53,524 nt of DNA from Anaerovoracaceae bacterium (GCA_963648085.1 CAVJDC010000001.1:1-53524), one strand, 5' to 3'. Counted from the stretch's first letter, positions 3,586-28,521 are shown. The notes: generated from the letters alone by a model not told the origin. A program made the numbers and translations.

Positions 3586-6500
3586 ATGCAAAAGAATTTG
3601 TCTCAAAGGATGAATGAATATGTGAAAGAACATTTGCGCACGAAGAACAGGAGACGCTTTGTGACTGCCATGGCATGCATAGTAATATTTTGCACGGTCT
3701 ATGAGCTGATCCTTCCGGCTGTCACGATGAGTGCAGATATATATTGTGGAAAAGAAGAGCACACTCATAGTGCCGGATGCTATGAAAATGTGCTTATTTG
3801 TGGACAGGAAGAATCGGAATCACACGAGCATATTGACGAGTGCTATGAAGAGCAGTTTGTATGTGAGATAGAAGAGCACACTCACAGCATGAGCTGTCAT
3901 TCCAATCCCGACGCAGACATCGAGACGCAGGAGGATTGGGAGAAGACTATTCCTGCTGACCTTGGCGACAGCTGGGCAGAAAATGTAGTAGCTGTGGCTC
4001 AAAGACAGCTGGGATATTGCGAAAGCAGTGTAAACTATGAGGTAGATGATGACAATACTACCCGTGGATATACTCGTTATGGTGCATGGTATGGCGCCCC
4101 TTATGCAGATTGGGATGCTATGTTTGTGTCATTCTGTCTAAATTACGCGGGAGTACCTCAGGATCGTTTTCCTTATGAGGCAGACTGCGCTGATTGGATG
4201 CAGAATCTGCAAAAGGCAGGACTTTATGCTGCAGCTAAGGATTATACCCCAGTATCTGGTGATATTATTTTCTTTGAGAATGGCAGTGACAGCCTTTCTG
4301 ACCACGTGGGAATCGTATCAGAAGTAAAGACTGCAGACGGTGATGCAACTGTCTGTACTATTGAGGGAAATGTCGGAGATAAGGTTTCTAAGTGTGAGTA
4401 TGATCTGACAGACAAGGATATCTTAGGCTATGGCATTTTGCCTTTAAATTGCGAATGCTATGATGATGCCGGAAGCCGTATTTGTGATGACGACTGTGAT
4501 TGCGATTGTCATAAATCAGATGAGATCAAAGAGGCTGAAAGTAAAGAGGATACAAATAAAGATGCTGCAAGCAAAGAGAACGCAAGTAAAGATAATGCAA
4601 GCGAAGAGGACGGTGCAAAAGAGGGCGCGCAGGGTGCTTATTCGCTTAGCTGCAAGGGTGAGGACTATGAAATCATTCTTACGTGGAATGAGGAAGGAGT
4701 TCTGCCTGAAAATACTACAGTGACTGCTGCAGAGATTTCCCAGGACAGCGAGGAATATCAGAAATATTACGATGATACAGTGACTGCACTGCAGGAAAAA
4801 GGAAGCTTAGAAGAAGGTAAGGATTTTTCCTTCGCCCGTTATTTTGATATACAGCTCACTAGTGATGGAAAGAGTGTGGAACCAAATGGAACAGTTGATG
4901 TAACTGTTCGTTATGATGAATTGACCACAAATGACATGCAAGTAGGAACTATTCACTTTACCTCAGATGGCAGTGAAATCTTAGATGCTACTGCAGTTGA
5001 TGATGAGTCGGGTGGTACAGCGATTACAAACCAGCAGGACAGCTTTTCTGTCATTGGCAACTTCGGTTTCTACGATGCGATGGTGACTAGTGCAGATTCT
5101 ACGGCTACTGGTGCGACTCAGGCGACTGTAAAGCTAGAGTGGGCAGATGGCGAGGAACATGCGGAGTCTTACACTATTACGCTGAAAAAAAGCGATGATG
5201 ATTCAACAGTTGCCACTGCTGTGCTAAGTGCAGACAATAGCTACTCCTATACATTTACAGGGCTTTACGCCAACACGACCTACTATGTAGATTATGCGAT
5301 TGACGGCTACAAAACAACAGAATCAGCGACGACATCCGCAAGCACATCATGGACAAAGGCAAGCAGCTTATCGAGCGGCAATACCTATGTCTTGGTATAT
5401 AACAACTCAAATAGTGTTTCTACAAGCGACAGCAGTCTCGCACAAGGAAGCGCAACAGTGTCTGGCAATACGCTTACTAGTGACGTACCAGAGGCGATGC
5501 AGTGGAAGTATACCAACAGCAAGCTGCAAAATGCCAGCACAGGCACATATTTGACATTGAATGCAACTCAGTCAGGTTGGGGTTGGTGGTCGTCTTCTTA
5601 CACGTACAGCTGGGGCTTAGGCAACGGAACGAATATTACTTACAGTAATAATAAGATTTCCAGTACAGCAAATAATACAACACGCTATTTGCAAAATTAC
5701 AATGGTGCAGCAAGTGGGCAGAGTAGCGGCACTGCCTACACTTTATATCAGAAATCTGATATTACAGAGATGCAATTTACGATTAAAGCAGTGCAGGATG
5801 CAAGCGAAATCGTTGAACCAGACGACTATAATGCCACATATAATTTTGAACACAACAAGACGATCGATTCACTAAATGACGGAGCAGAAAATCCGGATAC
5901 AAGCCTTGCAGGACAGGACTTCTATCGCCTTTATCTCGACATGACCGGCAAGACGGAGCCTATAGACCTGGTGGTTGTAGTAGATGCGTCTGGCAGCATG
6001 ACTAAGACAGACATGACTGTAAATGGACAATCAGGTCAGACACGTGTCGCAGCGATAAACAATTTCATGAATGGCACGACAGGCAGCAGCTACAATAGCG
6101 ATGGCTTTGTTTCGAAATTCCTAAGCATGAACAGTGAAAATCAGATCTCGGTGGTCAGATTCTATGGTCCTACAGGAATCACTACAACTTCACCGAGCTA
6201 CAGCTATAGCAAAGACAGTGATGTGCGCTGCAACTGGACAAGCACGGTACAGTATGTAAACTGCTCAAATCAAAGCAACAATGGTACAAACTACGAAGCA
6301 GGACTGCTGCAGGCAAGCGCCCAATTTGAGAAGGTTGCTGACAGTGGTCACAAAAAGGTCATGATCTTCTTGTCTGATGGTGTGCCTACCTTTTATATTG
6401 ATGATAATGGCAGCAGACAGGGAACAGGTGTCTATGCAAACCAAACCAACGTCAGCAACTGTAAGCAGCCTTCAAAGGATGCTTTCGACGCCTTCCGCAA

Positions 6501-8873: not shown

Positions 8874-9416
8874 ATCGAAATGCCGCCCTTTTTTCATTTA
8901 AGAAGCTAGATGATGGAAAAAATACAAGAACTTAGTACAGATGCACTGTGTGAAAAAGCAGTCGAGTAAAAAAATTTTAAAGACAAAAATAATTTGACAT
9001 ATATTTAACATATCTCTTGAAAAAATAAATAAAAAGGATTATCATAACTACGGCAGTAAATTGAGACAATAAAATAGCATTTATCCTGAAAAATACGCCA
9101 ACTTTAAAGGATACATTTGTACAATTGACAAGACCATAAAATTTACAAATAATATAAACACAAATGGCATAAATATATAAACATATAAATAATATAAACA
9201 AAAATGACCCAACTACACAACTATATAACAAATGATATCGTTGGGACCTACCCTTGATATAGAATTATTTCACGTGTCTAAATATCACAAAAGGAGGGAT
9301 GAATTATTTTACTGCATCATGTCCGATAGTGGCATGATAAATGAATCAATCGTTTAAACACGATAAATGACTCGATCATCTATTAATGTAAGAAAAATGA
9401 CAAAGGACAAAAACTA

Positions 9417-12400
9417 ATGAAGAAAATGAAGAAAACATTATCTATTCTGCTAGTACTTTGCATGGCTGTTTCTATGTTTGCAGGTCTTGGTATCAGTGCA
9501 AACGCTGCGGAAGCAGTTTTAGCAGAAAACAATGCAGCTGGATATAATTCCGGCGTGGGTACAGAAAATGACCCATATATTATCGCTACTTCTAACCAGT
9601 TAGCATATCTTGCTAGTCAGGTTAACAGCGGAAATACCTATAGCGGCAAGTATTTTAAACTTGATTGCAATATTGATTTGAGCGGTGCTGCATGGACACC
9701 TATCGGAGGCGGCTCATCAGCATATGATTTTGCAGGCAGCTTTGATGGAAATAATAAAATAATATCCAATTTGAATATTAGCGCTGCTTCACAGGACAAT
9801 ATCGGACTTTTCGGAAGTGTTTCCGGCACTGTAAAAAAAGTTGTTGTCTCAAGCGGTTCAGTTGAAGGTGGTAAGAATACAGGCGCTGTTGTTGGTAAAA
9901 ATTACGGAACTGTAACGGACTGTTCTAATATAGGATGCTCAGTAACTTCAGCCGGCCTCGGACAGGGCGTTGGCGGTGTAGTTGGTTCTTGCTGGAACGA
10001 TGGCACGATAACTAACTGCTACAACAGTGCTGCAGTTTCCGGTACTGGCGCAAGTACTTATGCAGGCGGAATTGTCGGCAAAGCTGAGTCTTCAATCTCC
10101 GGATGCACAAATAGCGGCAGCGTAACTTCACTTAGTTATTGTGGCGGAATTGTTGGATATGCGGCAGTACATCCTGATAACTGCACCAACAGCAGTTCAA
10201 CTCCTTCAGATATTATGGGATATTTAGCTGCAGCAGATGCAAGTGATACTACAAATGTTACGAGCGGCGGATCTTATCATGTAATCGGAGATGCTACTTT
10301 TAATATAAGCACTGATGAACCAGTTTCTATAGTTGGTAACGGAACAGCATATCGTGTAAGTATTATCTATTCGACGGCAGCAAATCTCACAATTTCAGAC
10401 CTTAAAGTTTCTGGGCCGGCAACTGCTGCATCTAACATTATAGATTTTGCAGAGGGAACTTCAAATATTCTTAACATCGAAGGCACCAGCGTATTGGAAA
10501 ATGACAACACATCTCTTAACTGCGCTATGATTCATGTTGAAAATACAGCAGATCTTACTTCATCACTTGATATTTCAGGTGCCGGAACTCTTTATATGTA
10601 TAAAAACAGCATGGGAGCTGCTATCGGTGCAGACACAGGCGAGGCAAACGGTGCTGTTACTATCAATAGCGGAAATATTTTTATCAAGGGCAGCAAGACA
10701 GGTGCTCTTATAGGAAATGATACAACTACAAATACCGCACTTCAGAATCGTATAGGCGATATCACTATCAAGGGCGGAAATATCAATCTGGTAAATAAAG
10801 CACAGGGCGCAGGTATAGGCGGCAGCCGCATGTCTGTAGCTAAAAATTGTAAAATCGAAGGCGGAAATGTTACATTAGTTACAGATTATAATGCACCCGT
10901 AATCGGAGCCGGTGCTCAGAAAAAGAACGCTTCTGGTGCAAATGGCAATCTTATTGTAACCGGAGGATCTGTAAAGACTATGGTTACAAGCAATGGATAT
11001 TCGGGCTTTAATATCAATTCTTCAAAGAGCGAAGAAACAACAGATGTTGCTATCAAAGCAGACAAGACAAATGGAACTGATCCTGTATATCTCTATAAGC
11101 TTGATGTCAGCAATATAAGTCCAGTAGATGGTGAATATACAGTTCGCGTAGACAATGAGCAGAGTCCTTACTATAAAGGCGGTTTGCATCAGTATCATTA
11201 CACAGCAAGCACAACTTCTACGACAGCAAACTGGACACCGACAGCAGATAATTGTCTTTATCTCTATCTCACTGCAGGAAATCATAGTATAGATGTGAAC
11301 GGAACGACAGTTAATGTTGATTGGGATTCTTCTGCATCAAGCTTTACAACTTCTGCAGTAAATCCGTCCGATGAAGTAAGTTTGGCTGAAGAGGATGATG
11401 TAATTACAATATATCCGAAGGGTGATGGTGAGGTAGTTTATTGGTTAACGAACCCACAATTTAATTTCTTTCAGGTAACTTTCGAAAAAGGAAAAAAATA
11501 TCTCATTAATATGTCAGCGTATGATTCAAAAACACAAGCAGCAGAATTATACTTTAAAGCTAAAGAAGGTGGCTACAACGGAAGTCTTGATGGTGTGACA
11601 TTCATCATTCCTGATGGAACGACATTTTCTTACTTTGATGTTGGCTACAAAGAGAAAGTAGATTTTACTATCGAGGGTGCCAAGACTGAAAACGGATATG
11701 CCACTTTAAATCAGAAGACATATGATGGATATAAGGATAGCAATGGCAATATAACAGATTCAAAAGGTAATATATATACCGGAGCTGAATCAATGTTCCA
11801 AATTTATGATGATTCATCTTTGACAATTAAAAATTTGAATGTGGCTATAAATCCTGATCAAAAGCTCAATATAAAAGCTTTTGACCAGAGAGGTATATAT
11901 ACTGGCAGCAGCGCTCAATCGTCATATTATACTGGCACCGTGAATCTTGAAAATGTAAATATGACAGGATGCGCCAGACTAAAAAATTACATAATTTATG
12001 CAGCTGATGCTACATTAAATAATGTCAAATTCGATACAACGGATATTCCTTTCTATATGGGCACTACAAATGGAGCAAAAAAATCAACTCTTACGATAAA
12101 TTCAATCGATTATAGTTCCTGCACAGGAACAGCAATAAGTACGCAAGGTGATTTGAACGTTATGCTTAACCCGACTGGTGACATTAAAATAGGAGGCAGC
12201 ATAATTTCAAAGGCAGCGATAAAAGTTACTCCACAGGATGGCTATGACATTGAGAGTATGACGGTAAACGGAAAATCTGTCAGCGTCCCTACAAAGGAAA
12301 CTACACTTTCTGATGCAGTCACAAGTGGGCTGAACATCAAGATGACTCCTCCACCAGCAACTTATACATCTTCAATTACAGCTGATAAAGAAAGTTACAA

Positions 12401-13223
12401 AACTGGTGAAACTGTCACAGTTACAGCAGCTCTTACACCTGACTCTGCAGAAAGTCTTGCAAGCGGTGAAATGAAATTCACATATGATACAGAAAAGCTC
12501 GAATTCATTAATACAGCACCAAACACTACTGTTCTTGGCGACAATGCAAAGTCAAGTGTAAGTGAAGGCGTATGCGTTGCGTCATTTAAAACTGATTCTG
12601 GCAGTGAAGTTGCCGTTTCAGAAGACACTCCTCTCACACTGGCAACCTTCACATTTGAGGCAAAAGCTGTGGGTACCGCTGACTTCACTGTAACAAAAGC
12701 AGTCGCTTCCGCGAAAGAAAAGCTCACAGGAAGCACTGTTAATCTGCCGAAGAGTGCGACAAGTATCACATTGATAGCTAATAATATTAAGATAGATACA
12801 TTTGGATCTGATTATAAGCTTCTCAAATATAAAGCAGACGCTCTGCCTGAGTCAGGCAATGCTTATTATGTTGGCGATACAATGCTGACTTATGTTCCTG
12901 CATATTCTCAGGGTGACGATGCAGAAAAATACGTTTTCGTAGCACTTTATAAGGACGGGGAAGAACCTGCTGCACCTATGGTAGAGACAAAGACCGGCAC
13001 TTATGAGACTATCACGGCGACAGGAGACGTAAATAAGGACACTGAGGTAGATATAATCGATGCTCAGGTTGTTATGTACATAGTGGCCAGCAAATTTACA
13101 AGTGCCACTAACGGTATCGACTGGCTCAATAGTGACGTAAATGGCGACGGAGCAATAAATGCTCTTGATTCTCAGGCTATTCAGTATTATGTTCACTATG
13201 ACAAGTTTGGCACTTTCAATTAA
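9417..13223 (+). CDS. Secreted surface protein: signal peptide, GLUG-motif module, G-rich beta-helix-like region, cohesin-like domain, conserved spacer (X-like), dockerin
   Basis: 1268 aa. Signal peptide: MKKMKKTLSILLVLCMAVSMFAGLGISANA. GLUG-type repeats: NIGLFGSVSG, GVGGVVGS, YAGGIVGK, YCGGIVGY. Cohesin-like block: YKTGETVTVTAALTP...GEMKFTYDTEKLEF...LTLATFTFEAKAVGTADFTV. Dockerin loops: DVNKDTEVDIID and DVNGDGAINALD. Confidence 0.9.
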   Translation: MKKMKKTLSILLVLCMAVSMFAGLGISANAAEAVLAENNAAGYNSGVGTENDPYIIATSNQLAYLASQVNSGNTYSGKYFKLDCNIDLSGAAWTPIGGGSSAYDFAGSFDGNNKIISNLNISAASQDNIGLFGSVSGTVKKVVVSSGSVEGGKNTGAVVGKNYGTVTDCSNIGCSVTSAGLGQGVGGVVGSCWNDGTITNCYNSAAVSGTGASTYAGGIVGKAESSISGCTNSGSVTSLSYCGGIVGYAAVHPDNCTNSSSTPSDIMGYLAAADASDTTNVTSGGSYHVIGDATFNISTDEPVSIVGNGTAYRVSIIYSTAANLTISDLKVSGPATAASNIIDFAEGTSNILNIEGTSVLENDNTSLNCAMIHVENTADLTSSLDISGAGTLYMYKNSMGAAIGADTGEANGAVTINSGNIFIKGSKTGALIGNDTTTNTALQNRIGDITIKGGNINLVNKAQGAGIGGSRMSVAKNCKIEGGNVTLVTDYNAPVIGAGAQKKNASGANGNLIVTGGSVKTMVTSNGYSGFNINSSKSEETTDVAIKADKTNGTDPVYLYKLDVSNISPVDGEYTVRVDNEQSPYYKGGLHQYHYTASTTSTTANWTPTADNCLYLYLTAGNHSIDVNGTTVNVDWDSSASSFTTSAVNPSDEVSLAEEDDVITIYPKGDGEVVYWLTNPQFNFFQVTFEKGKKYLINMSAYDSKTQAAELYFKAKEGGYNGSLDGVTFIIPDGTTFSYFDVGYKEKVDFTIEGAKTENGYATLNQKTYDGYKDSNGNITDSKGNIYTGAESMFQIYDDSSLTIKNLNVAINPDQKLNIKAFDQRGIYTGSSAQSSYYTGTVNLENVNMTGCARLKNYIIYAADATLNNVKFDTTDIPFYMGTTNGAKKSTLTINSIDYSSCTGTAISTQGDLNVMLNPTGDIKIGGSIISKAAIKVTPQDGYDIESMTVNGKSVSVPTKETTLSDAVTSGLNIKMTPPPATYTSSITADKESYKTGETVTVTAALTPDSAESLASGEMKFTYDTEKLEFINTAPNTTVLGDNAKSSVSEGVCVASFKTDSGSEVAVSEDTPLTLATFTFEAKAVGTADFTVTKAVASAKEKLTGSTVNLPKSATSITLIANNIKIDTFGSDYKLLKYKADALPESGNAYYVGDTMLTYVPAYSQGDDAEKYVFVALYKDGEEPAAPMVETKTGTYETITATGDVNKDTEVDIIDAQVVMYIVASKFTSATNGIDWLNSDVNGDGAINALDSQAIQYYVHYDKFGTFN

Positions 13224-13338
13224 TAAAAAAGATAAAGTATAAGAACTTTGTGAAAAAACTGGCAAACAATTCGCAAAATTACATATGTTGTTCTCTCGTA
13301 AGATAGTTTCTCAATCTAATCTTACAGAGACATATATA

Positions 13339-13374
13339 AAGGGGCGGTGGCGGTGCCAAACCGCCTCTTTGTTT
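13339..13374 (+). terminator. Possible terminator between the 9417 and 13413 genes
   Basis: Hairpin aggggcggt / accgcctct (one mismatch) is followed by ttgttt. Confidence 0.45.
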
Positions 13375-13412
13375 AATAGTATATTTACTATATATTTTCA
13401 GGGAGAATTCTC

Positions 13413-16400
13413 ATGAAACAAAAGAACAAGATTGTGTCACTGCTTATGGCTGTAATGCTGCTGCTGTCCTTGCTGCAGACGACCTCCGTTGCTTTTGCAC
13501 AGGAAGGTTATGGCTTAGAAATGGGTGCGACAGAGGGTACTTTCATTATCGGTGACAATATTTCGATACCCATATATTTGAAGGGCACGGCAGGTGCCGA
13601 AGCGCCAGTCTCAGCTCAGGTGGAACTAAATTATTCTGCAGAATTATTGAGATTGACTGGTGTCACCGCTGGAAATCTCACAAATTTTCGCGACACAACG
13701 GAAACTGCAGGCAGCATAATATTATCTTACTATGATTATACCGGTACATTTGATTCTGAAGGGAAGCTGCTGATAGCGACATTGAATTTTGCTGCTGTTG
13801 CATCAGGAAATACAGCAGTTAAATGTATAAATGGCATCGTTACAGAAAAAGAGAATCCTGCAGCAATTACTATTACAGAGCTTGGCAGCGAGCAGATTGC
13901 GATAGGCTCTTATCCATGGGAAGGAAAAGGTACGGAGAATGTTCCGTATCTCATAAAGACCGCAGATGATCTTGTCACATTGGCTCGCTTTGTAAATGAA
14001 TTGAAATTTGATTTTAAAGGCATTTATTTTAAGGTGACCAATGACATCGATCTGTCAAGTGTATGCGGTGAAACTACGAAAAATTGGCAGCCTATAGGCT
14101 GCGTTGATGAGTATGAGTCTGGAACCCATGGTTCTTCAACTATCATTTATCCTTCTTCGGCTGCGCCATTTGGCGGAAATTTTGACGGCGGAGGATACGA
14201 AATAAAGAATCTTTATTATAAGAATTCGGATACATCCAGTCAACAAGTAAGTAACTGCTTTGTCGGTTTGTTTGGATATGTACTTGATGCAAATATAAAG
14301 AATGTGACTGTGAACGGAAGCATAGAATGTTATGCATATGCCGGAGGTATTGCCGCATGGGCAGATGGGGAAGTAAATATTTCTGGCTGCACAAATAAAG
14401 TAAGCATAAAGACATATGCAGGTAATGCAGGTGGGATAGCGGGAAATACCATAAGCGAATATAAACTGACATCACCAGAAAAGGTATACCATAAGGAAAC
14501 AACTCTTATCATTGCCGATTGCGTAAATTATGGTGAAATTCGTGCAAATAAGACCGGATATGTTGGCGGTATAGCCATGCATGCGACCGAAATACGCAGA
14601 TGTGCAAATCACGGTGTGCTGTATAGCTTCTCATCAGCATATGGCATTTCCTATTTGTGTACAATTGATCGCTGCTATAATGACGGCGAAGTGTCCTCTG
14701 TCAGCGGCATTGCATCAGGCATTGGAGGATCGACCGTCACAAATTGCTACAATACAGGAAGCATTACATCTACGCGAAACAATTCCGATACTGGTTATCT
14801 GGCAGTTGGAATCTCATACACAGCGGACTATATCGCAAATTGTTATAATGTAGGCACACTCACATCTACCAGCAAGGGGAATCATGACATGTCGGTTCTC
14901 GGAGGTGTTTTTCCTATAGCTGCTAAGGTAACATCTCAGGAAAACAATTATTATCTTGATACGGTGAAGGCTGCTCCTGACGGATATACTTATATTGGTA
15001 TATCTCAGACATCAGAGCAACTCAAAGCACTTGCTCCCACACTCGGAGAAGCATTCTTTGAGGACAGCAGCAATGTAAATAACGGCTATCCTATTTTAGA
15101 CTGGCAGGCCGGTGATGTATATGATGTGGAATTTTCCCTTGTAAATGATGATAGTGGCGTTTCTTATGTCAATATCAACAATAAAAAAATCGACACAAAG
15201 CTGCGTTACTTGGATGGCTCTTCCGTAGTATTCTCAATAGAGGGATATAATACAGGAAAATACAAGGTTGGCAGTGTAATCCTTAATAATGAAACAGATT
15301 TGCTGCCATCTACAGACGGTACATATTCGTTTACTGTGACAACGGACAGTATCATACAGATTTCTATAGTTAAAAAAAGTTCTGAAGAAGCATCTGGCGG
15401 CAGCAATTCCAACGTATACTCAGGAAGTCTTTCTGGTGATAAAAAGTGGGATGGGACAAAAGTTGATGTTAGCTGGTATATAGGCCATGAGGATGATACG
15501 ACATATGAAATCTCAACTGCTGCAGAGCTGATGGGTGCAGCGGCACTTGTCAATGGCCTTGTGAATGAAGACTGTAAAGTTTATACATCTGAAACAGAAT
15601 ATCATGATGCCTCATGGTGGAATGATAAAGCCAACGGATGGGTGAATGAAAATACAACTGATGGATCCGGAGGCAGTGGCCTCAACATGTCTACAGACAC
15701 TTATCACTACGGAGTGGAGGATTTTAACGGAAAGACGATAAAACTCACTTCAAATCTTGATATGGGCGGAATATATGATGAAAGTTCCGACACTTGGTCT
15801 GGTCCAAACTTTATGCCTATCGGCGGGCAGTATCTTATGAAGGATGAAGAAAGCAGCACAAAGCTTAGCTCGTCATTCTGCGGAACGTTTGATGGCGATG
15901 GTCATTATGTATACAATATTTATTGTGATCGTCATTGCTCTAATGGCAATTTCGGTGACGGTCAGAGTGTCGGTCTCATAGGTCGTCTCGGAGTCCACGA
16001 CAATGACCCTGAAGAAATCCGTCCGACAAATCCGACGGTTCGAAATGTAGGCGTAACGGGATATATTTATGCGAACCGCAGCATTGGCGGAATTGTGGGA
16101 AAGACTGGAAAAACAGCATACAACAATGAAAATCTGGAAAAAGTGACTGACGGTTATGCGGTCATCGAAAATTGCGTAAACTATGCTCGTATTATAGGTA
16201 CCGACGCGAAAGGAACTGCCGGCGTAGTCGGCGCATTCTGGAATGGCGGAATTTGTCAAAATTGCTACAACATGGGCAATGTTACTGGCGGCTGGCCATC
16301 TGGCGGAATTGCAGGAACAAACGAAAATACCCTTCTTAGCTGTTATAATGCTGGTATGATTGATTCAACCTCGGGTGACAACTGGGCAGAGGCTATCGGG

Positions 16401-18044
16401 TCGTACAATGGAGACTTTAACCATTTTGTTGTCAACTGCTGGTGGCTAGAGGGAACCTCGACTGACGGAGGTTATTTTAACAGAAAAACAGATGATCTGG
16501 CATCAAATTCTATGACAGCAGATTCTATGAAGGATGCTTCCTTTGTAACAACGCTTGGATCCGCTTATGATGTGGATACAGATGGAAAAATAAATGGTGG
16601 CTATCCTGTGCTTAAATGGCAGCTGACAAATGAAGATAGTCAAGACAAAGATGACACAGGCGGCGGAGACACTGGCGGCGGAGACACAGGCGGCGGAGAC
16701 ACAGGCGGTGGAGACACAGGCGGTGGCGATACAGGCGGCGGTGACACTGGCGGTGGAGACACAGGCGGTGGCGATACAGGCGGCGGTGACACTGGCGGCA
16801 CAGGAGGCGGCGGCACTGATTCTAAAACAGATACCGATAATGAGCCTGTCGAAAAAAGAGATGCTGTTATAATTGACTCGAGTACTACAGTGACTGATGA
16901 TAGTGCTAATGTTGATGTCACTGCGGACGCAGTCAAGAAAAGTATAAATGAAGCGAAAAAATCAGAAGCCACAAAGCTTATCATAAAGACGGATAAAAGT
17001 GGTAAGAATGCTGATGATACTCAGATCACGATTCCAGCGGCTGCTGCAAAGGATATTGCAGATTCAAAGCTCACTCTGAGAATCGAAACAGCGGACGGCA
17101 GTATATTGACGCTTGATAAAGATTTCATAAAGAGTGTCAGCACGCAGATCGGAAGTGATGACCTGCATATTGTAATCACTGCGAAGACAGCGAAAGAAGC
17201 TTCAGAAGCTGTCAAGAGTTCAGGTATAAGTGCAGCGGATGCAGCAAATGCAAACATTTTCGAAGTACAGATGTTTGCGGGAAGTAAGCAGATTAAAGAA
17301 TTTAAGGGAAAAATAACGCTTGATCTGCGAGCACCGTCAGGCCTGAAGGCAGGAGACACAAATGATGTATATCGGGTCGACGCAGATGGCAAGTCAGAAA
17401 AGCACACCGGCAATGTCAAGTCAGAAAACGAAATACTTGTCTCAGAGGTGACAGCATCAGGGATGGGTACATTCCTGGTTCTTGCTCCTAAGGGACTTCC
17501 ATTTACGGATGTTTCAGGTCATTGGGCGATAGACGCCATTACATATGTCTACAATAACGGACTCTTTAATGGTGTCAGCGATACACTTTTTGCACCAAAT
17601 TCTACTATGACGCGTGCGATGCTTGTGACAGTTCTTTATAGAATGGAAAAGACCCCTGCTGTCACTGAAGGCAGAAGCTTCAGCGATGTCAAGTCAGGGA
17701 CATGGTATACGGACGCTGTCAGTTGGGCTTCATCGCATGAGATTGTAAAGGGCTTTGATGATGGAACGTTTGGTCCTAATAAGGATATAACGAGAGAGCA
17801 AATGGCTGCCATCTTGATGCGTTATGCTGAGTATAAGGGATACGATGTCAGCAAAACGGCTGATATTTCAGCTTATACGGATGCCTCGAAGGTAGGAAGC
17901 TGGGCACTTGACGATATGCGCTGGGCAGTTGGCTCAGGTCTGATCACTGGTATAGACAGCAAAACACTCGCACCTAAGGGCAATGCTACTCGCGCTCAGG
18001 TGGCGACTATCCTTATGCGCTTTCAGCAGAATATCGCTAAGTAG
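13413..18044 (+). CDS. SLH-anchored scaffold-like surface protein: signal peptide, N-terminal cohesin-like domain, two GLUG-motif modules, (GGDTG)n linker, three SLH repeats
   Basis: 1543 aa. Signal peptide ends in ...SVAFAQE. Cohesin-like block: GYGLEMGATEGTFIIGDNISIPIYLKG...LLIATLNFAAVASGNTAVKC. GLUG repeats: FVGLFGYV, YAGGIAAW, AGGIAGN, YVGGIAMH, SIGGIVGK. SLH repeats: FTDVSGHWAIDAITYVYNNGLFNG, FSDVKSGTWYTDAVSWASSHEIVKG, YTDASKVGSWALDDMRWAVGSGLITG. Confidence 0.9.
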   Translation: MKQKNKIVSLLMAVMLLLSLLQTTSVAFAQEGYGLEMGATEGTFIIGDNISIPIYLKGTAGAEAPVSAQVELNYSAELLRLTGVTAGNLTNFRDTTETAGSIILSYYDYTGTFDSEGKLLIATLNFAAVASGNTAVKCINGIVTEKENPAAITITELGSEQIAIGSYPWEGKGTENVPYLIKTADDLVTLARFVNELKFDFKGIYFKVTNDIDLSSVCGETTKNWQPIGCVDEYESGTHGSSTIIYPSSAAPFGGNFDGGGYEIKNLYYKNSDTSSQQVSNCFVGLFGYVLDANIKNVTVNGSIECYAYAGGIAAWADGEVNISGCTNKVSIKTYAGNAGGIAGNTISEYKLTSPEKVYHKETTLIIADCVNYGEIRANKTGYVGGIAMHATEIRRCANHGVLYSFSSAYGISYLCTIDRCYNDGEVSSVSGIASGIGGSTVTNCYNTGSITSTRNNSDTGYLAVGISYTADYIANCYNVGTLTSTSKGNHDMSVLGGVFPIAAKVTSQENNYYLDTVKAAPDGYTYIGISQTSEQLKALAPTLGEAFFEDSSNVNNGYPILDWQAGDVYDVEFSLVNDDSGVSYVNINNKKIDTKLRYLDGSSVVFSIEGYNTGKYKVGSVILNNETDLLPSTDGTYSFTVTTDSIIQISIVKKSSEEASGGSNSNVYSGSLSGDKKWDGTKVDVSWYIGHEDDTTYEISTAAELMGAAALVNGLVNEDCKVYTSETEYHDASWWNDKANGWVNENTTDGSGGSGLNMSTDTYHYGVEDFNGKTIKLTSNLDMGGIYDESSDTWSGPNFMPIGGQYLMKDEESSTKLSSSFCGTFDGDGHYVYNIYCDRHCSNGNFGDGQSVGLIGRLGVHDNDPEEIRPTNPTVRNVGVTGYIYANRSIGGIVGKTGKTAYNNENLEKVTDGYAVIENCVNYARIIGTDAKGTAGVVGAFWNGGICQNCYNMGNVTGGWPSGGIAGTNENTLLSCYNAGMIDSTSGDNWAEAIGSYNGDFNHFVVNCWWLEGTSTDGGYFNRKTDDLASNSMTADSMKDASFVTTLGSAYDVDTDGKINGGYPVLKWQLTNEDSQDKDDTGGGDTGGGDTGGGDTGGGDTGGGDTGGGDTGGGDTGGGDTGGGDTGGTGGGGTDSKTDTDNEPVEKRDAVIIDSSTTVTDDSANVDVTADAVKKSINEAKKSEATKLIIKTDKSGKNADDTQITIPAAAAKDIADSKLTLRIETADGSILTLDKDFIKSVSTQIGSDDLHIVITAKTAKEASEAVKSSGISAADAANANIFEVQMFAGSKQIKEFKGKITLDLRAPSGLKAGDTNDVYRVDADGKSEKHTGNVKSENEILVSEVTASGMGTFLVLAPKGLPFTDVSGHWAIDAITYVYNNGLFNGVSDTLFAPNSTMTRAMLVTVLYRMEKTPAVTEGRSFSDVKSGTWYTDAVSWASSHEIVKGFDDGTFGPNKDITREQMAAILMRYAEYKGYDVSKTADISAYTDASKVGSWALDDMRWAVGSGLITGIDSKTLAPKGNATRAQVATILMRFQQNIAK
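16653..16805 (+). repeat. In-frame 15-bp tandem repeat x ~10 encoding (DTGGG)n
   Basis: gacacaggcggcgga units differ only by synonymous changes, and a 45-bp higher-order unit is visible. The antisense ORF 16640-16984 (PPVSP repeats) is an artefact of this array. Confidence 0.95.
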
Positions 18045-18068
18045 AAAAAGATAAAAAAGGATGATGAA

Positions 18069-19976
18069 ATGATGACAAAATGCAGAAAATTTTTATCTGT
18101 CCTGCTGGTGCTATGTATGACTATTTCTATGTTGACAGGATATAGTATGAGTGCAAGTGCAGAGGATGAGGAAAATAATGTAACTACAATCTACTGGGTT
18201 AGTGAGAAAAATGCATCTTATTCGAATCCTGAAGGTACAGGTGATATTATATCTCTTTCAAGTCTTCCTGACGGCACGTACAGAATCGACGCAGAATCAT
18301 TCGAAAAAGGCGGAATTCTGTCAAGCTTATGTATCGGAGCAGCCACAGGAACCGATTATGTCAAAGTATATATACCAGACGGAGCAGGGATTGCAGAAAT
18401 AAGAAACGGTGATGAAAATGGCTCAGCAAAAGGAGCATCGGAATTTATAATCGATGCGGAGGGTGGAACAGTTTATGAGTCATCCGACCACTTTTCCCGC
18501 GGCACTGCGCTTTTCAGATACAATATAAGCGATGATGTACTTAATGCAGATGGCGTGAAATATAATACCAAATTTGTAGTACAAAATATGCATCTTGTCC
18601 TGACTGCAGATGTAAGAAGTGATGCTCAAAAGGATACAGTAATCTTTGATGTAGAAAAGACAAAGTCATTTGAGTTATATAATGTAACTGTGACAGGATG
18701 CAAAAATATGGCAGAAGATGGAAACGTGGTGCAAGCTCCGTATGAAACAAGATTTGATAATGTATGTTTTGATGCAGCGACTCAGGCATGTATAGCATAT
18801 TCGAAACGAAATACAAGCAATAAAATTTATATTTACTCATGTGACTTCAGTTCGTGTACAAAAAATGCAATCGCCAGGCCGAAAGGTTCTTATGTAGGCA
18901 ATTTTGATGTTATTTTTGTTCCAACAGGTGAGGTAAATATAAATGGCAAAATCCAAGGACGTGTCATTTTAGGCATAGACGAAAAAAACCCAGTCGCTCC
19001 AGTCGCTATTATAGTGGATGATAAGGCAGTGTCCATTCCGGCATATGGTGGAGATCTTTTTGACTTTAGAGGTAATGAAAAGAACTTCAGAATCACACTT
19101 CTCACATCCTATGCCGCATCTGTTTCCGGTGATAGAGAAGGATATGCAGTCGGTGAAACAGTTAATGTTACGGCCGCTTTTACTCCAACTGATGCAGACA
19201 TTCTTGCAAGTGGTGAGTTGAAATTCAGTTACGATAAAGATAAATTGGATTTCTTGTCAGTATCTTCAAATGAGTCACTTCTAGGTAACGATGCACGGGC
19301 AACCTGTGATGAAAATAATGCTGTCTGCACTGCGTCATTTAAGACTGCTTCCGGCAGCGAGATCAACGCAGAAAAAGGCAAACAAATCATTCTTGCAACC
19401 TTCAGTTTTATTGCAAAAAAAGCAGGAACGGCTGCTTTCACTGTGACTAAAGCTGCTGCATCTGCAAAGGAAGACGTTCGCGGGAGAGTTGCTATAAAGC
19501 CAGCAAGCGCAGCAAGTATCGATATTTTGCAAAGCAGAATCAGCACAAGCAAATTCGCAGCAGATTATGTGATGCTCAAATATACTGCTGCGGCAAAGCC
19601 TTCTGAGGGCAATGCATATTTTGTCGGCGATACAGCTCTGACATATGTTCCTGCATATGCAGAAAGAAATGACGAGTATGTTTTCGTAGCTCTTTATCAA
19701 GAAAAGAATGTCCCGACTTCACCTGAAGCAGAAGAAAAAACAGGTACTTACACAATCATCGATTCGGCGACAGGAGATGCAAATCACGACGGAGCGACAA
19801 ATATAGCAGACACTCAGACAGTCATGTACATGACCAGAAGCACATTCAACAGCAAAACAACTGGCTTAGATTGGCTGAACAGTGATGTGAATGGCGATGG
19901 GGTGGTAAATTCACTTGATGCTAAGGCTATCCAATATTATGCTCACTACAAGAAATTTGGCGAGTTTAGTAATTAA
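18069..19976 (+). CDS. Secreted protein: signal peptide, beta-helix-like region, cohesin-like domain, conserved spacer (X-like), dockerin; paralogue of the C-terminal half of the 9417-13223 product
   Basis: 635 aa, starting 24 bp after the 13413 gene with SD aaaagga. Signal peptide: ...LTGYSMSASAEDE. Cohesin-like block: YAVGETVNVTAAFTP...GELKFSYDKDKLDF...IILATFSFIAKKAGTAAFTV. Dockerin loops: DANHDGATNIAD and DVNGDGVVNSLD. Confidence 0.9.
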   Translation: MMTKCRKFLSVLLVLCMTISMLTGYSMSASAEDEENNVTTIYWVSEKNASYSNPEGTGDIISLSSLPDGTYRIDAESFEKGGILSSLCIGAATGTDYVKVYIPDGAGIAEIRNGDENGSAKGASEFIIDAEGGTVYESSDHFSRGTALFRYNISDDVLNADGVKYNTKFVVQNMHLVLTADVRSDAQKDTVIFDVEKTKSFELYNVTVTGCKNMAEDGNVVQAPYETRFDNVCFDAATQACIAYSKRNTSNKIYIYSCDFSSCTKNAIARPKGSYVGNFDVIFVPTGEVNINGKIQGRVILGIDEKNPVAPVAIIVDDKAVSIPAYGGDLFDFRGNEKNFRITLLTSYAASVSGDREGYAVGETVNVTAAFTPTDADILASGELKFSYDKDKLDFLSVSSNESLLGNDARATCDENNAVCTASFKTASGSEINAEKGKQIILATFSFIAKKAGTAAFTVTKAAASAKEDVRGRVAIKPASAASIDILQSRISTSKFAADYVMLKYTAAAKPSEGNAYFVGDTALTYVPAYAERNDEYVFVALYQEKNVPTSPEAEEKTGTYTIIDSATGDANHDGATNIADTQTVMYMTRSTFNSKTTGLDWLNSDVNGDGVVNSLDAKAIQYYAHYKKFGEFSN

Positions 19977-20374: not shown

Positions 20375-20468
20375 CTTGTAGATTTCAGCTCGCGCTTGCA
20401 GATTGCAGATTGCAGATTTCGGCTCGCAATTGCAGATTGCAGATTTCAGCTTGCAGCTTTTGCAATTG
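20375..20468. repeat. Intergenic compound repeat (units ~20-34 bp with nested ttgcaga heptamers) upstream of thiolase
   Basis: Reiterations: cttgtagatttcagctcgcg / cttgcagattgcagattgcagatttcggctcgca / attgcagattgcagatttcagcttgca. Confidence 0.8.
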
Positions 20469-20529
20469 ATATGTGACATTTTCCTGCCAGTATAAAGGTA
20501 AATCCCCCGTTGACGAAGGAGGTACAGAC

Positions 20530-21708
20530 ATGAAGGAAGTTGTTATAGTAAGTGCAGTAAGAACACCGATTGGCCGTTTTGGAAAGTCACTAAATGGTGT
20601 AGGTGCTGTAGATCTTGGTGCTGCAGCTATGAAGGAAGCTGTCAAGCGTGCAGGAATCGAGCCAGAGCAGATTGATGAAGTTGTCTTCGGATGCGTACTC
20701 CAGGCAGGTCAGGGGCAGAGTGTTGCCAGACTTGCAGCTATGGGAGCAGGGATTCCAAAGGAAGTACCTGCCTTTACGATAAACAAAATGTGCGGCTCAG
20801 GTCTGAGATCTGTCAGCCTCGCAGCACAGATGATCAAGGCAGGGGATGCAGATATCGTCCTTGCAGGCGGCACAGAATCTATGTCTATGGCGCCATATCT
20901 CGTTCCAAAGACAAGATGGGGCGCACGTATGGGAAATACAGTTATGGAAGATGCGATGCTCAAGGATGGCCTGACAGATACATTCAGCGGACTTCATATG
21001 GGTATCACAGCAGAAAATGTTGCAGAGCAGTGGGATATATCAAGAGAAGCTATGGATGATTTTTCATATCAGTCACAGCAGAAGGCTGAGGCTGCTATCA
21101 AGGCAGGAAAATTTAAGGACGAGATCGTTCCTGTTGAAGTTCCACAGTGGGATGGAAGCAAGGTTACAGTAGACACAGACGAGCATCCTATTTTTGGAAT
21201 CGGAAGAGAAGCATTTGATGGTGCAAAGCCTGCTTTCAAGGCTGATGGAAAAGTTACAGCATTGAACGCTTCAGGTATAAATGATGGAGCTTCCGCTCTT
21301 ATAGTTATGTCTGCAGAAAAGGCAGAAGAGCTTGGCATCAAGCCTATGTGCAAGATAAAGTCATATGCTTCAGCAGGAGTAGAGCCTTCAATCATGGGTA
21401 TAGGACCTGTCCCCGCTACTAGAAAGGCACTTGAAAAGGCAGGCCTTGACCTCGCAGATATCGACCTCATCGAAGCAAATGAAGCATTTGCAGCACAGTC
21501 ACTCGCAGTAGGCAAGGATCTTGGTTTTGATCCAGAAAAGCTAAATGTAAATGGCGGAGCAATAGCACTCGGACATCCTATCGGTGCATCAGGTGCCAGA
21601 ATCCTGACATCACTCCTTTACGAAATGGAAAGAAGAGGCTCAAAGTATGGTCTTGCTACACTTTGCATCGGCGGCGGCATGGGAACTGCTATGATCGTTG
21701 AAAAATAA
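20530..21708 (+). CDS. thl: Acetyl-CoA C-acetyltransferase (thiolase II)
   Basis: I chose the ATG at 20530 because SD gaaggagg lies 7-8 nt upstream and [18 protein letters not shown] is the canonical thiolase N-terminus. Other motifs: [10 protein letters not shown] (active-site Cys), [18 protein letters not shown]. The ORF-track start at 20473 is a spurious extension. Confidence 0.95.
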
Positions 21709-27531: not shown

Positions 27532-28521
27532 TTGAGAGCAAAAAAGATACTCAGTCTGTTACTCGTACTTGCAATGATGCTCACTCTTTCGAGCACTATG
27601 GCTTTTGCCAGCACAGGCGCCACAATCGCTGCTGAGTCAGTATCTGCCGCAGCAGATGCCGAAACAGTTCAGGTGCCTATCAAGCTTACTGCCGCTGACA
27701 GCGGGGTAGCGACGATGAACCTTGCAATTACGCTTACAGGCGCAAGCTTTACAATGGACAATACAAATACCACAGCAACTGCAGACAGCGCACTTACGGG
27801 TCTGTGCAGCTCAAATGTTGTTGATGGCACACTCTACATCGCTTATGCTGCGATAGAGAACACAACAGCTCCTGCTACACTCGTGACTTTGACTTTACCA
27901 GCTCCTGCAGCAGGTACACAGTACACTGTCAATGTTGCTAAGGGATCTGCAAATGGGACACCGACTATAAGCTATTTTGCAGATAATGCTTTCACTCAGA
28001 TCGATGAAGTTACATTTACAAGCGGAATCGTATCTAAGGAGGAAGCCACAGAGCCTGAGACAGGATTTGTAGGTACACTTATAGAACCTGTCGCAGATTA
28101 CTTTACAACAGCAGGCATCACTACATCATTTGTAAACGGAAACTCTTACTCAGCAGGAGATACCTTCACAGTAGCATGTGAAAATCCTTGCTTAGTAGCT
28201 ATCTCGACAGACAATGGAACTTCGTGGATTTCGCTTGCAGCTGCAGAGACGGAGACCGCAAATACATACCTCTTTGCATTACCTGCAGATCTGAACGGAG
28301 CATTCCAGGTAGAGATGGCGATGAAGGGTGATCTCAATTACGACGGCGTGGTTAAAGTAACTGACGTTTCTCGACTTCAGAAAATCAATATAAAGGCTCT
28401 TGAGATGCCAGTTGGGTTTGACGCGCTGGCTTCAGATTTTAACGCAGACGGTACAATTGCTGTTAGCGACTGTAGTATTCTGATGAAAATCAATATAAAA
28501 GCAGAAGCCGCAGCTTGGTAA
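27532..28521 (+). CDS. Small secreted cohesin-like + spacer + dockerin protein
   Basis: TTG start with SD aaaggagaaa 5 nt upstream. Signal peptide: MRAKKILSLLLVLAMMLTLSSTMAFA. Cohesin-like block: ETVQVPIKLTAADSGVATMNLAITL...TLYIAYAAIENTTAPATLVTLTL. Dockerin loops: DLNYDGVVKVTD and DFNADGTIAVSD. Confidence 0.85.
   Translation: MRAKKILSLLLVLAMMLTLSSTMAFASTGATIAAESVSAAADAETVQVPIKLTAADSGVATMNLAITLTGASFTMDNTNTTATADSALTGLCSSNVVDGTLYIAYAAIENTTAPATLVTLTLPAPAAGTQYTVNVAKGSANGTPTISYFADNAFTQIDEVTFTSGIVSKEEATEPETGFVGTLIEPVADYFTTAGITTSFVNGNSYSAGDTFTVACENPCLVAISTDNGTSWISLAAAETETANTYLFALPADLNGAFQVEMAMKGDLNYDGVVKVTDVSRLQKINIKALEMPVGFDALASDFNADGTIAVSDCSILMKINIKAEAAAW

What the first reader, a model, noticed from the sequence alone, without database searches (positions are those of the whole stretch)
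9417..19976. Cohesin / X-dockerin / SLH gene trio whose cargo looks like adhesin modules, not enzymes
Seen in sequence: the 13413-18044 product has a signal peptide, an N-terminal cohesin-like domain and three C-terminal SLH repeats. Both flanking products (9417-13223 and 18069-19976) end with a cohesin-like domain, a ~110-aa conserved spacer (GNAY[YF]VGDT[MA]LTYVPAY...YVFVALY) and a dockerin with two canonical EF-hand-like loops (D-x-N-x-D-x-x-x-[DN]-x-x-D). Established knowledge: in cellulosomes such as that of Acetivibrio thermocellus, an X-module/dockerin dyad docks onto cohesins of SLH-anchored proteins. Inference: this is a cohesin-dockerin surface assembly. However, I see no glycoside hydrolase, CBM or other catalytic signature. 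The passengers are GLUG-motif and G-rich beta-helix-like regions. Every X-Doc protein also carries its own cohesin, so head-to-tail chaining into surface fibrils anchored on the SLH protein is conceivable. A non-enzymatic, possibly self-polymerising cohesin-dockerin system would be unusual.
Basis: partly seen in the sequence, partly recalled or inferred. Interest (0 to 1): 0.8.

Follow-up and report, generated by a model that had tools for sequence, protein, structure and literature searches.

The report
Cohesin-dockerin surface display of beta-helix cargo
Three neighbouring genes of an uncultured gut-type Firmicute (nearest relative a Lachnospiraceae MAG) encode a wall-anchored protein and two plug-in proteins that very probably snap together through cellulosome-type cohesin-dockerin connectors to display beta-helix binding modules rather than recognisable enzymes; this is a rare, conserved variant of a known assembly principle, not a new principle.

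Summary
Pfam finds Cohesin and Dockerin_1 above the gathering cutoff at the C-termini of P1 (9417-13223) and P3 (18069-19976). It finds three SLH repeats in P2 (13413-18044). P2's N-terminus also passes the Pfam Cohesin cutoff when scanned alone. An AF2 model of the P3 module matches solved cohesins (TM 0.72-0.78) and shows a small beta-sandwich "X" before the dockerin.

The Coh-X-Doc triad is a rare family: 11 clusters in 5.8 billion proteins, and five further loci. In all seven distinct loci with enough flanking DNA it lies next to a large SLH protein with the P2-type N-terminal cohesin.

A cargo block carried by P1 here is fused inside the SLH protein in three other loci, which supports P1 docking on P2.

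No catalytic or CBM family was detected. However, the G-rich block is a confidently modelled beta-helix whose only structural neighbour, a weak one, is Cthe_2159, a polysaccharide-lyase-like carbohydrate binder. So "adhesin, not carbohydrate-related" is not secure.

Dockerins without CAZyme cargo are common, and proteins that bind their own dockerin are documented (Amy4). Which cohesin binds which dockerin, and whether chains form, could not be tested.

Verdict: real, a new variant of a known kind, of moderate interest.

The parts
9417..13223 (+). P1, 1268 aa. Secreted plug-in protein: signal peptide, GLUG-type region, beta-helix block 2, block 3, then Coh-X-Doc.
   Evidence: ORF; Pfam; module map
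9534..10286 (+). P1 residues 40-290. GLUG-type beta-solenoid unit, an extremely common building block of giant surface proteins.
   Evidence: Glug 18.6 bits, sub-cutoff. 35,009 representative proteins match at E<=1e-3, with up to 25 matched stretches per protein. Glug found in 24 of 33 relatives.
10239..11366 (+). P1 residues 275-650, 'block 2'. G-rich right-handed beta-helix of about 250 aa plus a C-terminal beta-sandwich of about 110 aa. No Pfam family.
   Evidence: AF2 pLDDT 93.2, pTM 0.92. Only probable PDB neighbour is 4phb Cthe_2159. No profile hit in PDB or Pfam. Found fused inside SLH proteins of L001, L006 and L007.
11364..12371 (+). P1 residues 650-985, 'block 3'. Passenger shared with P3 residues 31-345 (26% identity). 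Fold not determined.
12357..12779 (+). P1 cohesin (A3 class).
   Evidence: Pfam 33.5 bits; family HMM 189.7 bits
12786..12980 (+). P1 X module (about 65 aa, YVPAY motif).
   Evidence: family HMM 103.7 bits; alignment
13005..13220 (+). P1 dockerin with two Ca-loop repeats.
   Evidence: Pfam 37 bits; HMM 130.4 bits
13413..18044 (+). P2, 1543 aa. SLH-anchored protein with a distal N-terminal cohesin and two GLUG-type passengers.
13503..13916 (+). P2 N-terminal cohesin (A2 class, residues 31-168).
   Evidence: Pfam 27.6 bits when scanned alone; hhalign 96.7%; HMM cross-hits
13923..15122 (+). P2 GLUG-type region 1 (residues 171-570).
   Evidence: 30% identity to P1 46-286
15420..16622 (+). P2 GLUG-type region 2 (residues 670-1070).
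   Evidence: 52-53% identity to the SLH proteins L001_638 and L007_597. 39% identity to the giant ORF, residues 1962-2380.
16653..16799 (+). 15-bp tandem repeat, 9.8 copies, encoding the (DTGGG)n flexible linker of P2.
   Evidence: translation
17490..18041 (+). P2: three SLH repeats (cell-wall anchor).
   Evidence: Pfam 134.9 bits, three stretches
18069..19976 (+). P3, 635 aa. Short paralogue of P1: signal peptide, block-3-like passenger, then Coh-X-Doc. Its start codon lies 24 bp after the P2 stop.
19104..19532 (+). P3 cohesin (A3 class).
   Evidence: Pfam 30.7 bits. AF2 block-mean pLDDT mostly 85-96. Foldseek TM 0.72-0.78 to solved cohesins.
19539..19718 (+). P3 X module, a predicted six-stranded beta-sandwich.
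   Evidence: HMM 85.2 bits; AF2 block-mean pLDDT 73-94
19755..19970 (+). P3 dockerin.
   Evidence: Pfam 26.1 bits; HMM 126.8 bits; AF2 confidence low
27532..28521 (+). 329-aa secreted protein with a dockerin of a different class. A possible ligand for the A3 cohesins (inference).
   Evidence: Dockerin_1 22.9 bits, exactly at the cutoff. Only 13 bits to the family dockerin HMM. N-terminus not demonstrably a cohesin.

Best explanation
The trio is a small, non-cellulosomal cohesin-dockerin system that displays proteins on the cell surface of an uncultured Firmicute (nearest relative a Lachnospiraceae MAG).

P2 is exported and held on the wall by its three C-terminal SLH repeats. A pre-SLH domain and a (DTGGG)n linker project it outward. 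It carries two GLUG-type beta-solenoid passengers and ends distally in an N-terminal cohesin.

P1 and P3 are secreted. Their invariant C-terminal cohesin-X-dockerin triad plugs them, through the Ca-binding dockerin, onto a cohesin. The most likely target is the P2 N-terminal cohesin, which is the only SLH-linked cohesin in the window.

The cohesin inside each triad then offers a further socket. It could take a second dockerin class (for example ORF 27532-28521), as in the two-tier CipA scheme, or another X-Doc, which would extend a chain.

The cargo is beta-solenoid: GLUG units and a polysaccharide-lyase-like beta-helix with a beta-sandwich. It most likely binds a polysaccharide or glycan ligand, making the complex an extendable adhesive or ligand-capturing layer.

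Shown: domain identities, the cohesin fold, the cargo fold, conservation of the triad, synteny, and the fused-versus-split cargo pattern. Inferred: who binds whom, and what the cargo binds.
For: - Domains.
- Cohesin fold, and the same Coh-X-Doc domain order as the CipA C-terminus (3kcp, 4fl4).
- The triad is inherited as one unit in all 13 family members, while the N-terminal parts vary. Between P1 and P3 the triad is more conserved than the cargo: Coh 51.5%, X 57.8%, Doc 61.6%, against 26% for the passenger.
- Synteny: the Coh-X-Doc gene lies zero or one gene upstream of a large protein (1,500-2,100 aa where complete) with an A2-class N-terminal cohesin, and C-terminal SLH wherever the C-terminus is held, in the window, L004, L001/L002, L003, L005, L006 and L007. 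These include Lachnospiraceae and Anaerovoracaceae MAGs.
- Fusion argument: P1 block 257-646 is about 32% identical to an internal segment of the SLH proteins of L001, L006 and L007. The cargo is covalently anchored there and dockerin-borne here.
- Cargo: no catalytic family in the trio or in 33 relatives, which instead carry Glug, Flg_new_2, Peptidase_M26_N, Dockerin_1, SLH, Big_2 and LRR. Block 2 is a confident beta-helix whose nearest structure is the carbohydrate-binding Cthe_2159 (PMC6712302; PMC9210967).
- The same GLUG-2 module also sits on a membrane-anchored 3970-aa protein in the window, so the way this cargo is anchored is interchangeable.
Against: - No binding was tested, and no multimer prediction was available.
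- The dockerin part of the model is low confidence (block-mean pLDDT 43-67).
- Five related loci also carry a small SLH protein of about 405-430 aa with a third cohesin-like class. That protein could be the true X-Doc receptor there, and a copy could lie elsewhere in this genome.
- The similarity to Cthe_2159 is weak (E 0.03, TM 0.44, 17% identity). Pfam PF14262 does not hit block 2.
- Lack of a Pfam hit does not exclude a new enzyme family on a beta-helix scaffold.
- A terminator-like hairpin at 13349-13365 between P1 and P2 may mean P1 is transcribed separately.
Confidence: 0.65

Rival explanations
1. Self-polymerising fibre. The X-Doc of one P1 or P3 molecule binds the A3 cohesin of the next. 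This builds head-to-tail chains whose base is docked on the P2 cohesin, giving a non-covalent, pilus-like adhesive fibril.
For: - Every family member keeps one A3 cohesin directly fused to X-Doc.
- Most related loci show more cohesins than dockerins. L001 has one dockerin and four cohesin or cohesin-like domains.
- There is an experimental precedent for a cohesin binding the dockerin of its own protein: Amy4 (PMC4611034).
Against: - The A2 and A3 cohesins are only 16% identical, which suggests different specificities. If X-Doc binds A2, it is less likely to bind A3 as well.
- The CipA C-terminus has the same Coh-X-Doc order and does not self-polymerise (established knowledge of the A. thermocellus cellulosome).
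- A second dockerin class exists in the window that could occupy A3.
- No binding data.
Confidence: 0.2
2. A cellulosome-like degradative complex with unrecognised enzymes. The polysaccharide-lyase-like beta-helix (block 2), and possibly block 3 or the GLUG regions, are catalytic on pectin, mucin glycans or another polymer. The cohesin-dockerin scaffold would then concentrate enzymes on the surface, as in amylosomes or the proposed mucinolysomes.
For: - The only structural neighbour of block 2 belongs to the pectate-lyase superfamily (PMC6712302).
- Block 2 has invariant Lys, Asn, Ser and His positions (K122, K150, N76, N252, S244, H317).
- Cellulosome-type scaffolds for starch and mucin substrates are documented (PMC4611034; PMC12997984).
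Against: - No GH, PL, CE or peptidase catalytic family in the trio or in 33 relatives.
- The papers read describe Cthe_2159 as a binder, with lyase function only putative (PMC6712302, PMC9210967).
- No invariant acidic cluster of the kind that binds Ca2+ in pectate lyases appears among the conserved columns. The 3D arrangement could not be inspected.
Confidence: 0.12
3. The three proteins do not bind each other. Their cohesins and dockerins engage partners encoded elsewhere, for example a small Coh-SLH anchor like those in the related loci. On this reading the clustering reflects only co-regulation of surface proteins.
For: - Small SLH proteins with a third cohesin-like class occur in five related loci.
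- The window is rich in unrelated surface proteins: LPXTG-VWA, Flg_new and SLH proteins.
Against: - The gene pair is strictly adjacent in seven distinct loci across families.
- The fused-versus-split cargo pattern.
- No small Coh-SLH gene was found in the window or in the stretch of L004 held.
Confidence: 0.08

Closest known systems
Acetivibrio thermocellus CipA C-terminus (Coh9-X-DocII) docking on the SLH anchors SdbA, OlpB and Orf2p
   Same: It has the same domain order, cohesin then a small beta-sandwich X then dockerin, at the C-terminus of a secreted protein. Its partner is an SLH-anchored protein that bears a cohesin. 3kcp and 4fl4 are among the top fold matches over about 325 columns.
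   Different: - One cohesin per protein instead of nine, and no CBM3.
- No dockerin-bearing CAZymes were found.
- The anchor P2 carries large passengers and has its cohesin at the far N-terminus.
- The X module shows no sequence similarity to the CipA X module. In the profile search, the best-matched stretch on 3kcp_A (E 0.006) is a 53-residue piece of the cohesin part of the profile, not X or the dockerin.
- The cohesin fold resembles type I cohesins best (6kgf, 4ums, 3ul4).
Ruminococcus bromii amylosome protein Amy4
   Same: Cargo, cohesin and dockerin sit on one polypeptide. Its cohesin binds its own dockerin and those of other proteins, and it docks on a wall-anchored scaffoldin (PMC4611034).
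   Different: The Amy4 cargo is a GH13 amylase. Its anchor Sca2 is sortase-linked, not SLH-linked. There is no X module.
Non-cellulosomal cohesin-dockerin systems: Clostridium perfringens GH84C/NanJ toxin complexes, and rumen metagenome dockerin proteins
   Same: Cohesin and dockerin are used outside cellulose degradation. The C. perfringens Coh-FN3 pair (2w1n) is the top fold hit. Most rumen dockerin proteins lack CAZy modules (PMC6487960).
   Different: The C. perfringens partners are glycoside hydrolases and sialidases. Here no catalytic module is detected, and the system has a dedicated SLH anchor in a conserved gene cluster.
Cthe_2159 (PF14262) and beta-solenoid adhesin regions such as L. 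reuteri SRRP-BR
   Same: A right-handed beta-helix on a surface or secreted protein of a gut or plant-fibre Firmicute. Cthe_2159 binds cellulose and polygalacturonate (PMC6712302), and relatives are proposed adhesive domains (PMC9210967). 4phb is the only probable fold match of block 2.
   Different: No sequence-level membership. The TM-score is only 0.44. Block 2 has an extra C-terminal beta-sandwich and its own motifs (LYxYK, IKGSKTG, GGLHxYxY).

Membership tests
Cohesin (PF00963) | Profile match above Pfam's gathering cutoff | tested here: met
   P1 33.5 bits and P3 30.7 bits. P2 residues 1-176 score 27.6 bits when scanned alone. The cutoff is 24.1.
Cohesin (PF00963) | Nine-stranded beta-sandwich (jelly-roll) fold | tested here: met
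   P3 cohesin: block-mean pLDDT mostly 85-96, Foldseek TM 0.72-0.78 to 6kgf, 4ums, 5nrm and 3ul4.
Cohesin (PF00963) | Ca-dependent binding of a cognate dockerin | not testable with these tools
   Needs ELISA, ITC or a multimer prediction.
Dockerin type I (PF00404) | Profile match above the cutoff, and two duplicated Ca-binding loop and helix segments | tested here: met
   P1 37 bits and P3 26.1 bits, cutoff 22.9. The loops are D-V-N-K-D-T-E-V-D-I-I-D and D-V-N-G-D-G-A-I-N-A-L-D in P1, and the second segment is nearly invariant across the family.
Dockerin type I (PF00404) | Folded helix-loop-helix pair | tested here: inconclusive
   Two helices are predicted, but block-mean pLDDT is only 43-67.
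SLH domain (PF00395) | Three tandem SLH repeats at one terminus | tested here: met
   134.9 bits, three stretches at the P2 C-terminus.
Type II X-dockerin dyad (CipA / ScaA type) | Small beta-sandwich X module immediately before the dockerin | tested here: met
   A module of about 60-65 aa by the HMM, six predicted strands, block-mean pLDDT 73-94. The domain order matches 3kcp.
Type II X-dockerin dyad (CipA / ScaA type) | Homology of the X module and dockerin to known type II X-Doc | tested here: not met
   In the family-profile search of PDB the best-matched stretch on 3kcp_A (E 0.006) is a 53-residue piece of the cohesin part of the profile. The best dockerin hits are R. flavefaciens group I and type I dockerins.
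Type II X-dockerin dyad (CipA / ScaA type) | Binds a type II cohesin on an SLH anchor, with X contributing to the interface | not testable with these tools
   Supported only by synteny and the fusion argument.
Cellulosome | Dockerin-bearing CAZymes and a CBM-bearing scaffoldin | tested here: not met
   No GH, PL, CE or CBM family in the trio, in the other large window ORFs scanned, or in 33 cargo relatives.
Glug (PF07581) | Profile match above the cutoff | tested here: inconclusive
   P1 itself scores 18.6 bits, below the 20.5 cutoff. However, 24 of 33 relatives of the same region match, best E 1.5e-80.
Cthe_2159 (PF14262) | Profile match | tested here: not met
   No PF14262 hit in 16 block-2 sequences even at E<=1.
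Cthe_2159 (PF14262) | Right-handed beta-helix superposable on 4phb | tested here: inconclusive
   Probability 0.98, but E 0.031, TM 0.44 and rmsd 8.7 over 273 columns.
Amy4-type self-binding cohesin-dockerin protein | Cohesin and dockerin on one polypeptide | tested here: met
   P1 and P3.
Amy4-type self-binding cohesin-dockerin protein | The protein's own cohesin recognises its own dockerin | not testable with these tools
   Needs a binding assay.

The most novel reading that the evidence does not exclude
P1 and P3 polymerise head-to-tail, the X-Doc of one molecule binding the A3 cohesin of the next, on the tip cohesin of the SLH-anchored P2. This would build a non-covalent, Ca-dependent, modular adhesive fibre of beta-helix lectin-like units. 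It would be a third way, besides sortase pili and fibrillar adhesins, for a Gram-positive cell to extend an adhesin from its surface.
Probability: 0.15. Interest if true: 0.75.

Novelty: new variant of a known kind. Interest (0 to 1): 0.45.

Why it matters
Cohesin-dockerin pairs are usually studied as enzyme organisers. Here there is a compact, conserved and rare gene set in which the connectors appear to mount binding-type beta-helix cargo on an S-layer-type anchor. The same cargo is found fused to the anchor in some genomes and dockerin-borne in others.

That gives a clean natural test case for two questions: why bacteria split surface proteins into dockable parts, and whether one-cohesin/one-dockerin proteins chain.

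It also defines three things that can be tested directly:
- an A2 cohesin class that Pfam misses in full-length scans;
- a structurally distinctive beta-helix domain (block 2).

The practical value is a small set of probably orthogonal cohesin-dockerin pairs for protein-assembly engineering.

Tried and rejected
- Single-sequence PDB search and BLASTP of the P2 N-terminus against the P1 cohesin found nothing significant.
- Word-indexed homologue searches with the P2 N-terminus, alone and as alignment A2, returned nothing.
- The A2 profile against PDB gave only spurious proteasome alpha-subunit hits over 60 columns; I rejected these.
- Sequence searches of the three passengers against PDB gave nothing meaningful. 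One call failed through a frame error.
- The block-2 profile found nothing in PDB or Pfam.
- Block 2 against the viral structure library gave only low-probability tail-fibre noise.
- I tested whether the 329-aa dockerin protein (27532-28521) starts with a cohesin. This was not supported: hhalign probability 0.5% and 0.1%.
- I considered a mirror-tree comparison of the dockerin against each cohesin class. I dropped it because, with about seven loci and all the modules genetically linked, it cannot discriminate.
- The C. lentocellum minimal system (PMC13487519) is enzyme-based and not a close analogue.

Full report
**1. Observation**

- P1: Pfam gives Cohesin at 988-1100 (33.5 bits, cutoff 24.1) and Dockerin_1 at 1203-1258 (37 bits, cutoff 22.9).
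- P3: Cohesin at 355-466 (30.7 bits) and Dockerin_1 at 569-621 (26.1 bits).
- P2: three SLH repeats (134.9 bits).

The full-length scan did not report a cohesin in P2. Its first 176 residues scanned alone score 27.6 bits for PF00963 (E 3.8e-6), above the cutoff. Two independent tests agree:

- A profile of the N-termini of P2-like proteins aligns to a profile of the family's Pfam-positive cohesins with 96.7% probability (E 3e-10, 115 columns).
- An HMM built only from those N-termini hits the cohesins of P1 (E 4e-8) and P3 (E 8e-5) and of their relatives along its full length.

P1 and P3 share a C-terminal block of about 440 aa at 44% identity. All three N-termini read as Sec signal peptides; this was judged by eye.

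An AF2 model of the P3 module has mean pLDDT 77. Block-mean pLDDT is mostly 85-96 for the cohesin, 73-94 for X and 43-67 for the dockerin. It superposes on solved cohesins at TM 0.72-0.78. Among its best multi-domain matches are the C. perfringens Coh-FN3 pair (2w1n) and the CipA Coh9-X-DocII fragment (3kcp, 4fl4).

**2. How widespread, and in what context**

The Coh-X-Doc triad is a rare family.

- There are 11 clusters among 5.8 billion proteins, none above 51% identity to P3.
- There are three loci in 185,579 species genomes: a Lachnospiraceae MAG at 76% identity, an unclassified bacterium, and an Anaerovoracaceae MAG.
- There are two loci in the JGI metagenomes.

The Lachnospiraceae MAG carries the same trio of 1270, 1509 and 647 aa.

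In every distinct locus with enough flanking DNA, the Coh-X-Doc gene lies zero or one gene upstream of a large protein that starts with the A2-class cohesin. These proteins are 1,500-2,100 aa where complete, and end in SLH repeats wherever the C-terminus is held; L003 and L005 are cut by the contig end. The loci are the window, L004, L001/L002, L003, L005, L006 and L007.

Across the family the triad is inherited as one unit while the N-terminal parts vary. They can be a second cohesin, a beta-helix or GLUG units. Between P1 and P3 the triad is far more conserved than the passenger: Coh 51.5%, X 57.8%, Doc 61.6%, against 26%.

Five related loci also have a small SLH protein of about 405-430 aa with a third cohesin-like class. 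In L001 this scores 21.5 bits, below the cutoff. The window, and the stretch of L004 that is held, lack it.

**3. A fusion argument for P1 docking on P2**

P1 residues 257-646 are about 32% identical, over roughly 400 aa, to an internal segment of the SLH-anchored proteins of L001, L006 and L007.

So the same cargo is covalently part of the cohesin-SLH protein in those genomes. In the window and in L004 it is carried by the dockerin protein next door. This is the classic fused-versus-split pattern expected of physically associated partners.

P2 itself looks like a fusion of two parts:
- the N-terminal part (cohesin plus GLUG region) of the L001 1608-aa protein;
- the GLUG-2 plus SLH protein L001_638 (52% identity).

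**4. What the cargo is**

Pfam and NCBIfam find no GH, PL, CE, CBM or peptidase catalytic family in the trio.

An exhaustive HMMER search with P1 residues 30-985 found 35,009 cluster representatives at E<=1e-3. Nearly all match the roughly 220-aa N-terminal GLUG-type unit, which gives up to 25 matched stretches in proteins of 2,000-7,800 aa.

In 33 sampled relatives Pfam reports the following, again with no catalytic domain:
- Glug in 24
- Flg_new_2 in 7
- Peptidase_M26_N, named by Pfam as the N-terminal region of M26 IgA1 proteases, in 6
- Dockerin_1 in 6
- SLH, Big_2, MBG and LRR in 1 each

GLUG cargo on a dockerin is therefore a recurring architecture. Only two of the 150 best hits carry this specific triad.

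The 'G-rich' block 2 (P1 275-650) has no Pfam family and no PDB relative by profile. It folds very confidently (pLDDT 93.2, pTM 0.92) into a beta-helix of about 250 aa plus a beta-sandwich of about 110 aa.

Its single probable structural neighbour is 4phb, Cthe_2159 of C. thermocellum: probability 0.98, but E 0.031, TM 0.44 and 17% identity. Nothing in the viral structure library matches.

Cthe_2159 is described as a polysaccharide-lyase-like (PL9-like) beta-helix that binds cellulose and polygalacturonate (PMC6712302). A survey of fibrillar adhesins treated a relative as a candidate adhesive domain akin to the L. reuteri SRRP binding region (PMC9210967).

'No CBM or enzyme signature' holds at the sequence level only. 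A glycan-binding role is the best guess, and a lytic role is not excluded.

**5. Mechanism**

Most likely (confidence 0.65):
- P2 is fixed to the wall by SLH and presents its cohesin at the distal tip.
- P1 and P3 dock on a cohesin through X-Doc, most probably the P2 cohesin.
- Their own A3 cohesin is a second-tier socket.

Two features fit a CipA-like two-tier logic. The A2 and A3 cohesins are only 16% identical. The window also holds a second dockerin class, on the 329-aa protein at 27532-28521: Dockerin_1 at the cutoff, and only 13 bits to the family dockerin HMM.

The alternative use of A3 is head-to-tail chaining. This stays possible (confidence 0.2), and the excess of cohesins over dockerins in related loci favours it. 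It cannot be decided here.

Operon signals are weak evidence only. There is an 11/12 promoter-like site at 9125-9153, a terminator-like hairpin at 13349-13365 between P1 and P2, and only 24 bp between P2 and P3.

**6. Comparison with what is known**

The assembly principle and the Coh-X-Doc order match the CipA C-terminus docking on SLH anchors. Membership in the type II X-Doc family fails at the sequence level. In the family-profile search of PDB, the best-matched stretch on 3kcp_A is a 53-residue piece of the cohesin part of the profile. The best dockerin matches are R. flavefaciens group I and type I dockerins.

R. bromii Amy4 is a precedent for a cargo-cohesin-dockerin protein whose cohesin binds its own dockerin (PMC4611034).

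Dockerins without CAZyme cargo are the majority in a rumen metagenome: 24.3% carried CAZy modules and 63.5% had no known function (PMC6487960).

What is new:
- the specific conserved triad and its X module;
- the A2 cohesin class at the tip of passenger-bearing SLH proteins;
- the exclusively beta-solenoid cargo;
- the fused-versus-split evolutionary pattern.

**7. Verdict**

The feature is real and well supported, and the domain reading is correct. The functional reading is partly supported. I rate it a new variant of a known kind, interest 0.45.

The most novel reading that remains open is a self-assembling cohesin-dockerin adhesive fibre: probability about 0.15, interest about 0.75 if true.

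Noticed in passing
window 40388-52300 (+): A 3970-aa ORF with no Pfam hit at E<=0.01. It has a signal peptide, a C-terminal (GN)n low-complexity tract and a transmembrane anchor. It carries the same GLUG-2 module as P2 (residues 1962-2380, 39% identity) and further GLUG-like units at about 2678-3500. The same cargo family therefore sits on three anchor types in one window: SLH, dockerin and membrane anchor.
   Followed up: partly
window 27532-28521 (+): A 329-aa secreted protein with a C-terminal dockerin of a different class (Pfam 22.9 bits, exactly at the cutoff) and an unassigned beta-rich N-terminus. TIG is weak, and a cohesin is not supported by hhalign. It is a candidate ligand for the A3 cohesins.
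   Followed up: partly
window 16653-16799: A 15-bp tandem repeat (9.8 copies, 86% matches) encoding the (DTGGG)n linker of P2. The P2 orthologue in the related MAG is 34 aa shorter (1509 aa), so the copy number may vary.
   Followed up: partly
window 3586-8847 (+): A 1753-aa LPXTG-anchored protein with two VWA plus DUF7604 units (226.7 bits), an fn3-like segment and a weak TIGR02594-like N-terminal region. It is a sortase-anchored adhesin-type protein immediately upstream of the trio.
   Followed up: no
window 28998-37933 (+): Three more large surface proteins: Flg_new repeats (28998-32231), a 545-aa SLH protein (32574-34211), and a Flg_new + MucBP(weak) + SLH protein (34361-37933). The window is a surface-protein island.
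   Followed up: no
window 20376-20458: Heptamer TTGCAGA repeated about 9 times (also scored as 27- and 34-bp periods) in the intergenic region upstream of the thiolase gene at 20473-21708.
   Followed up: no
L001 6629-7897, L003 6769-8055, L005 1953-3299, L006 5617-6909, L007 11266-12480: Small SLH proteins of about 405-430 aa with a third, divergent cohesin-like N-terminal domain (Pfam Cohesin 21.5 bits, below the cutoff, in L001) and a G/S-rich linker. They are present in five related loci, and absent from the window and from the stretch of L004 held.
   Followed up: partly
window 13413-13940 (P2 N-terminus): A point of method. hmmscan of full-length P2 reported no cohesin at E<=0.1, yet the isolated N-terminus passes the Pfam cutoff. 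Cohesins at the tips of long repetitive surface proteins may be systematically under-annotated; the precomputed Pfam lists for the P2-like proteins in L001 show only SLH.
   Followed up: partly
window 9147-9228: AT-rich imperfect direct repeats (periods 17, 21 and 40) overlapping the best promoter-like site (9125-9153) upstream of P1.
   Followed up: no
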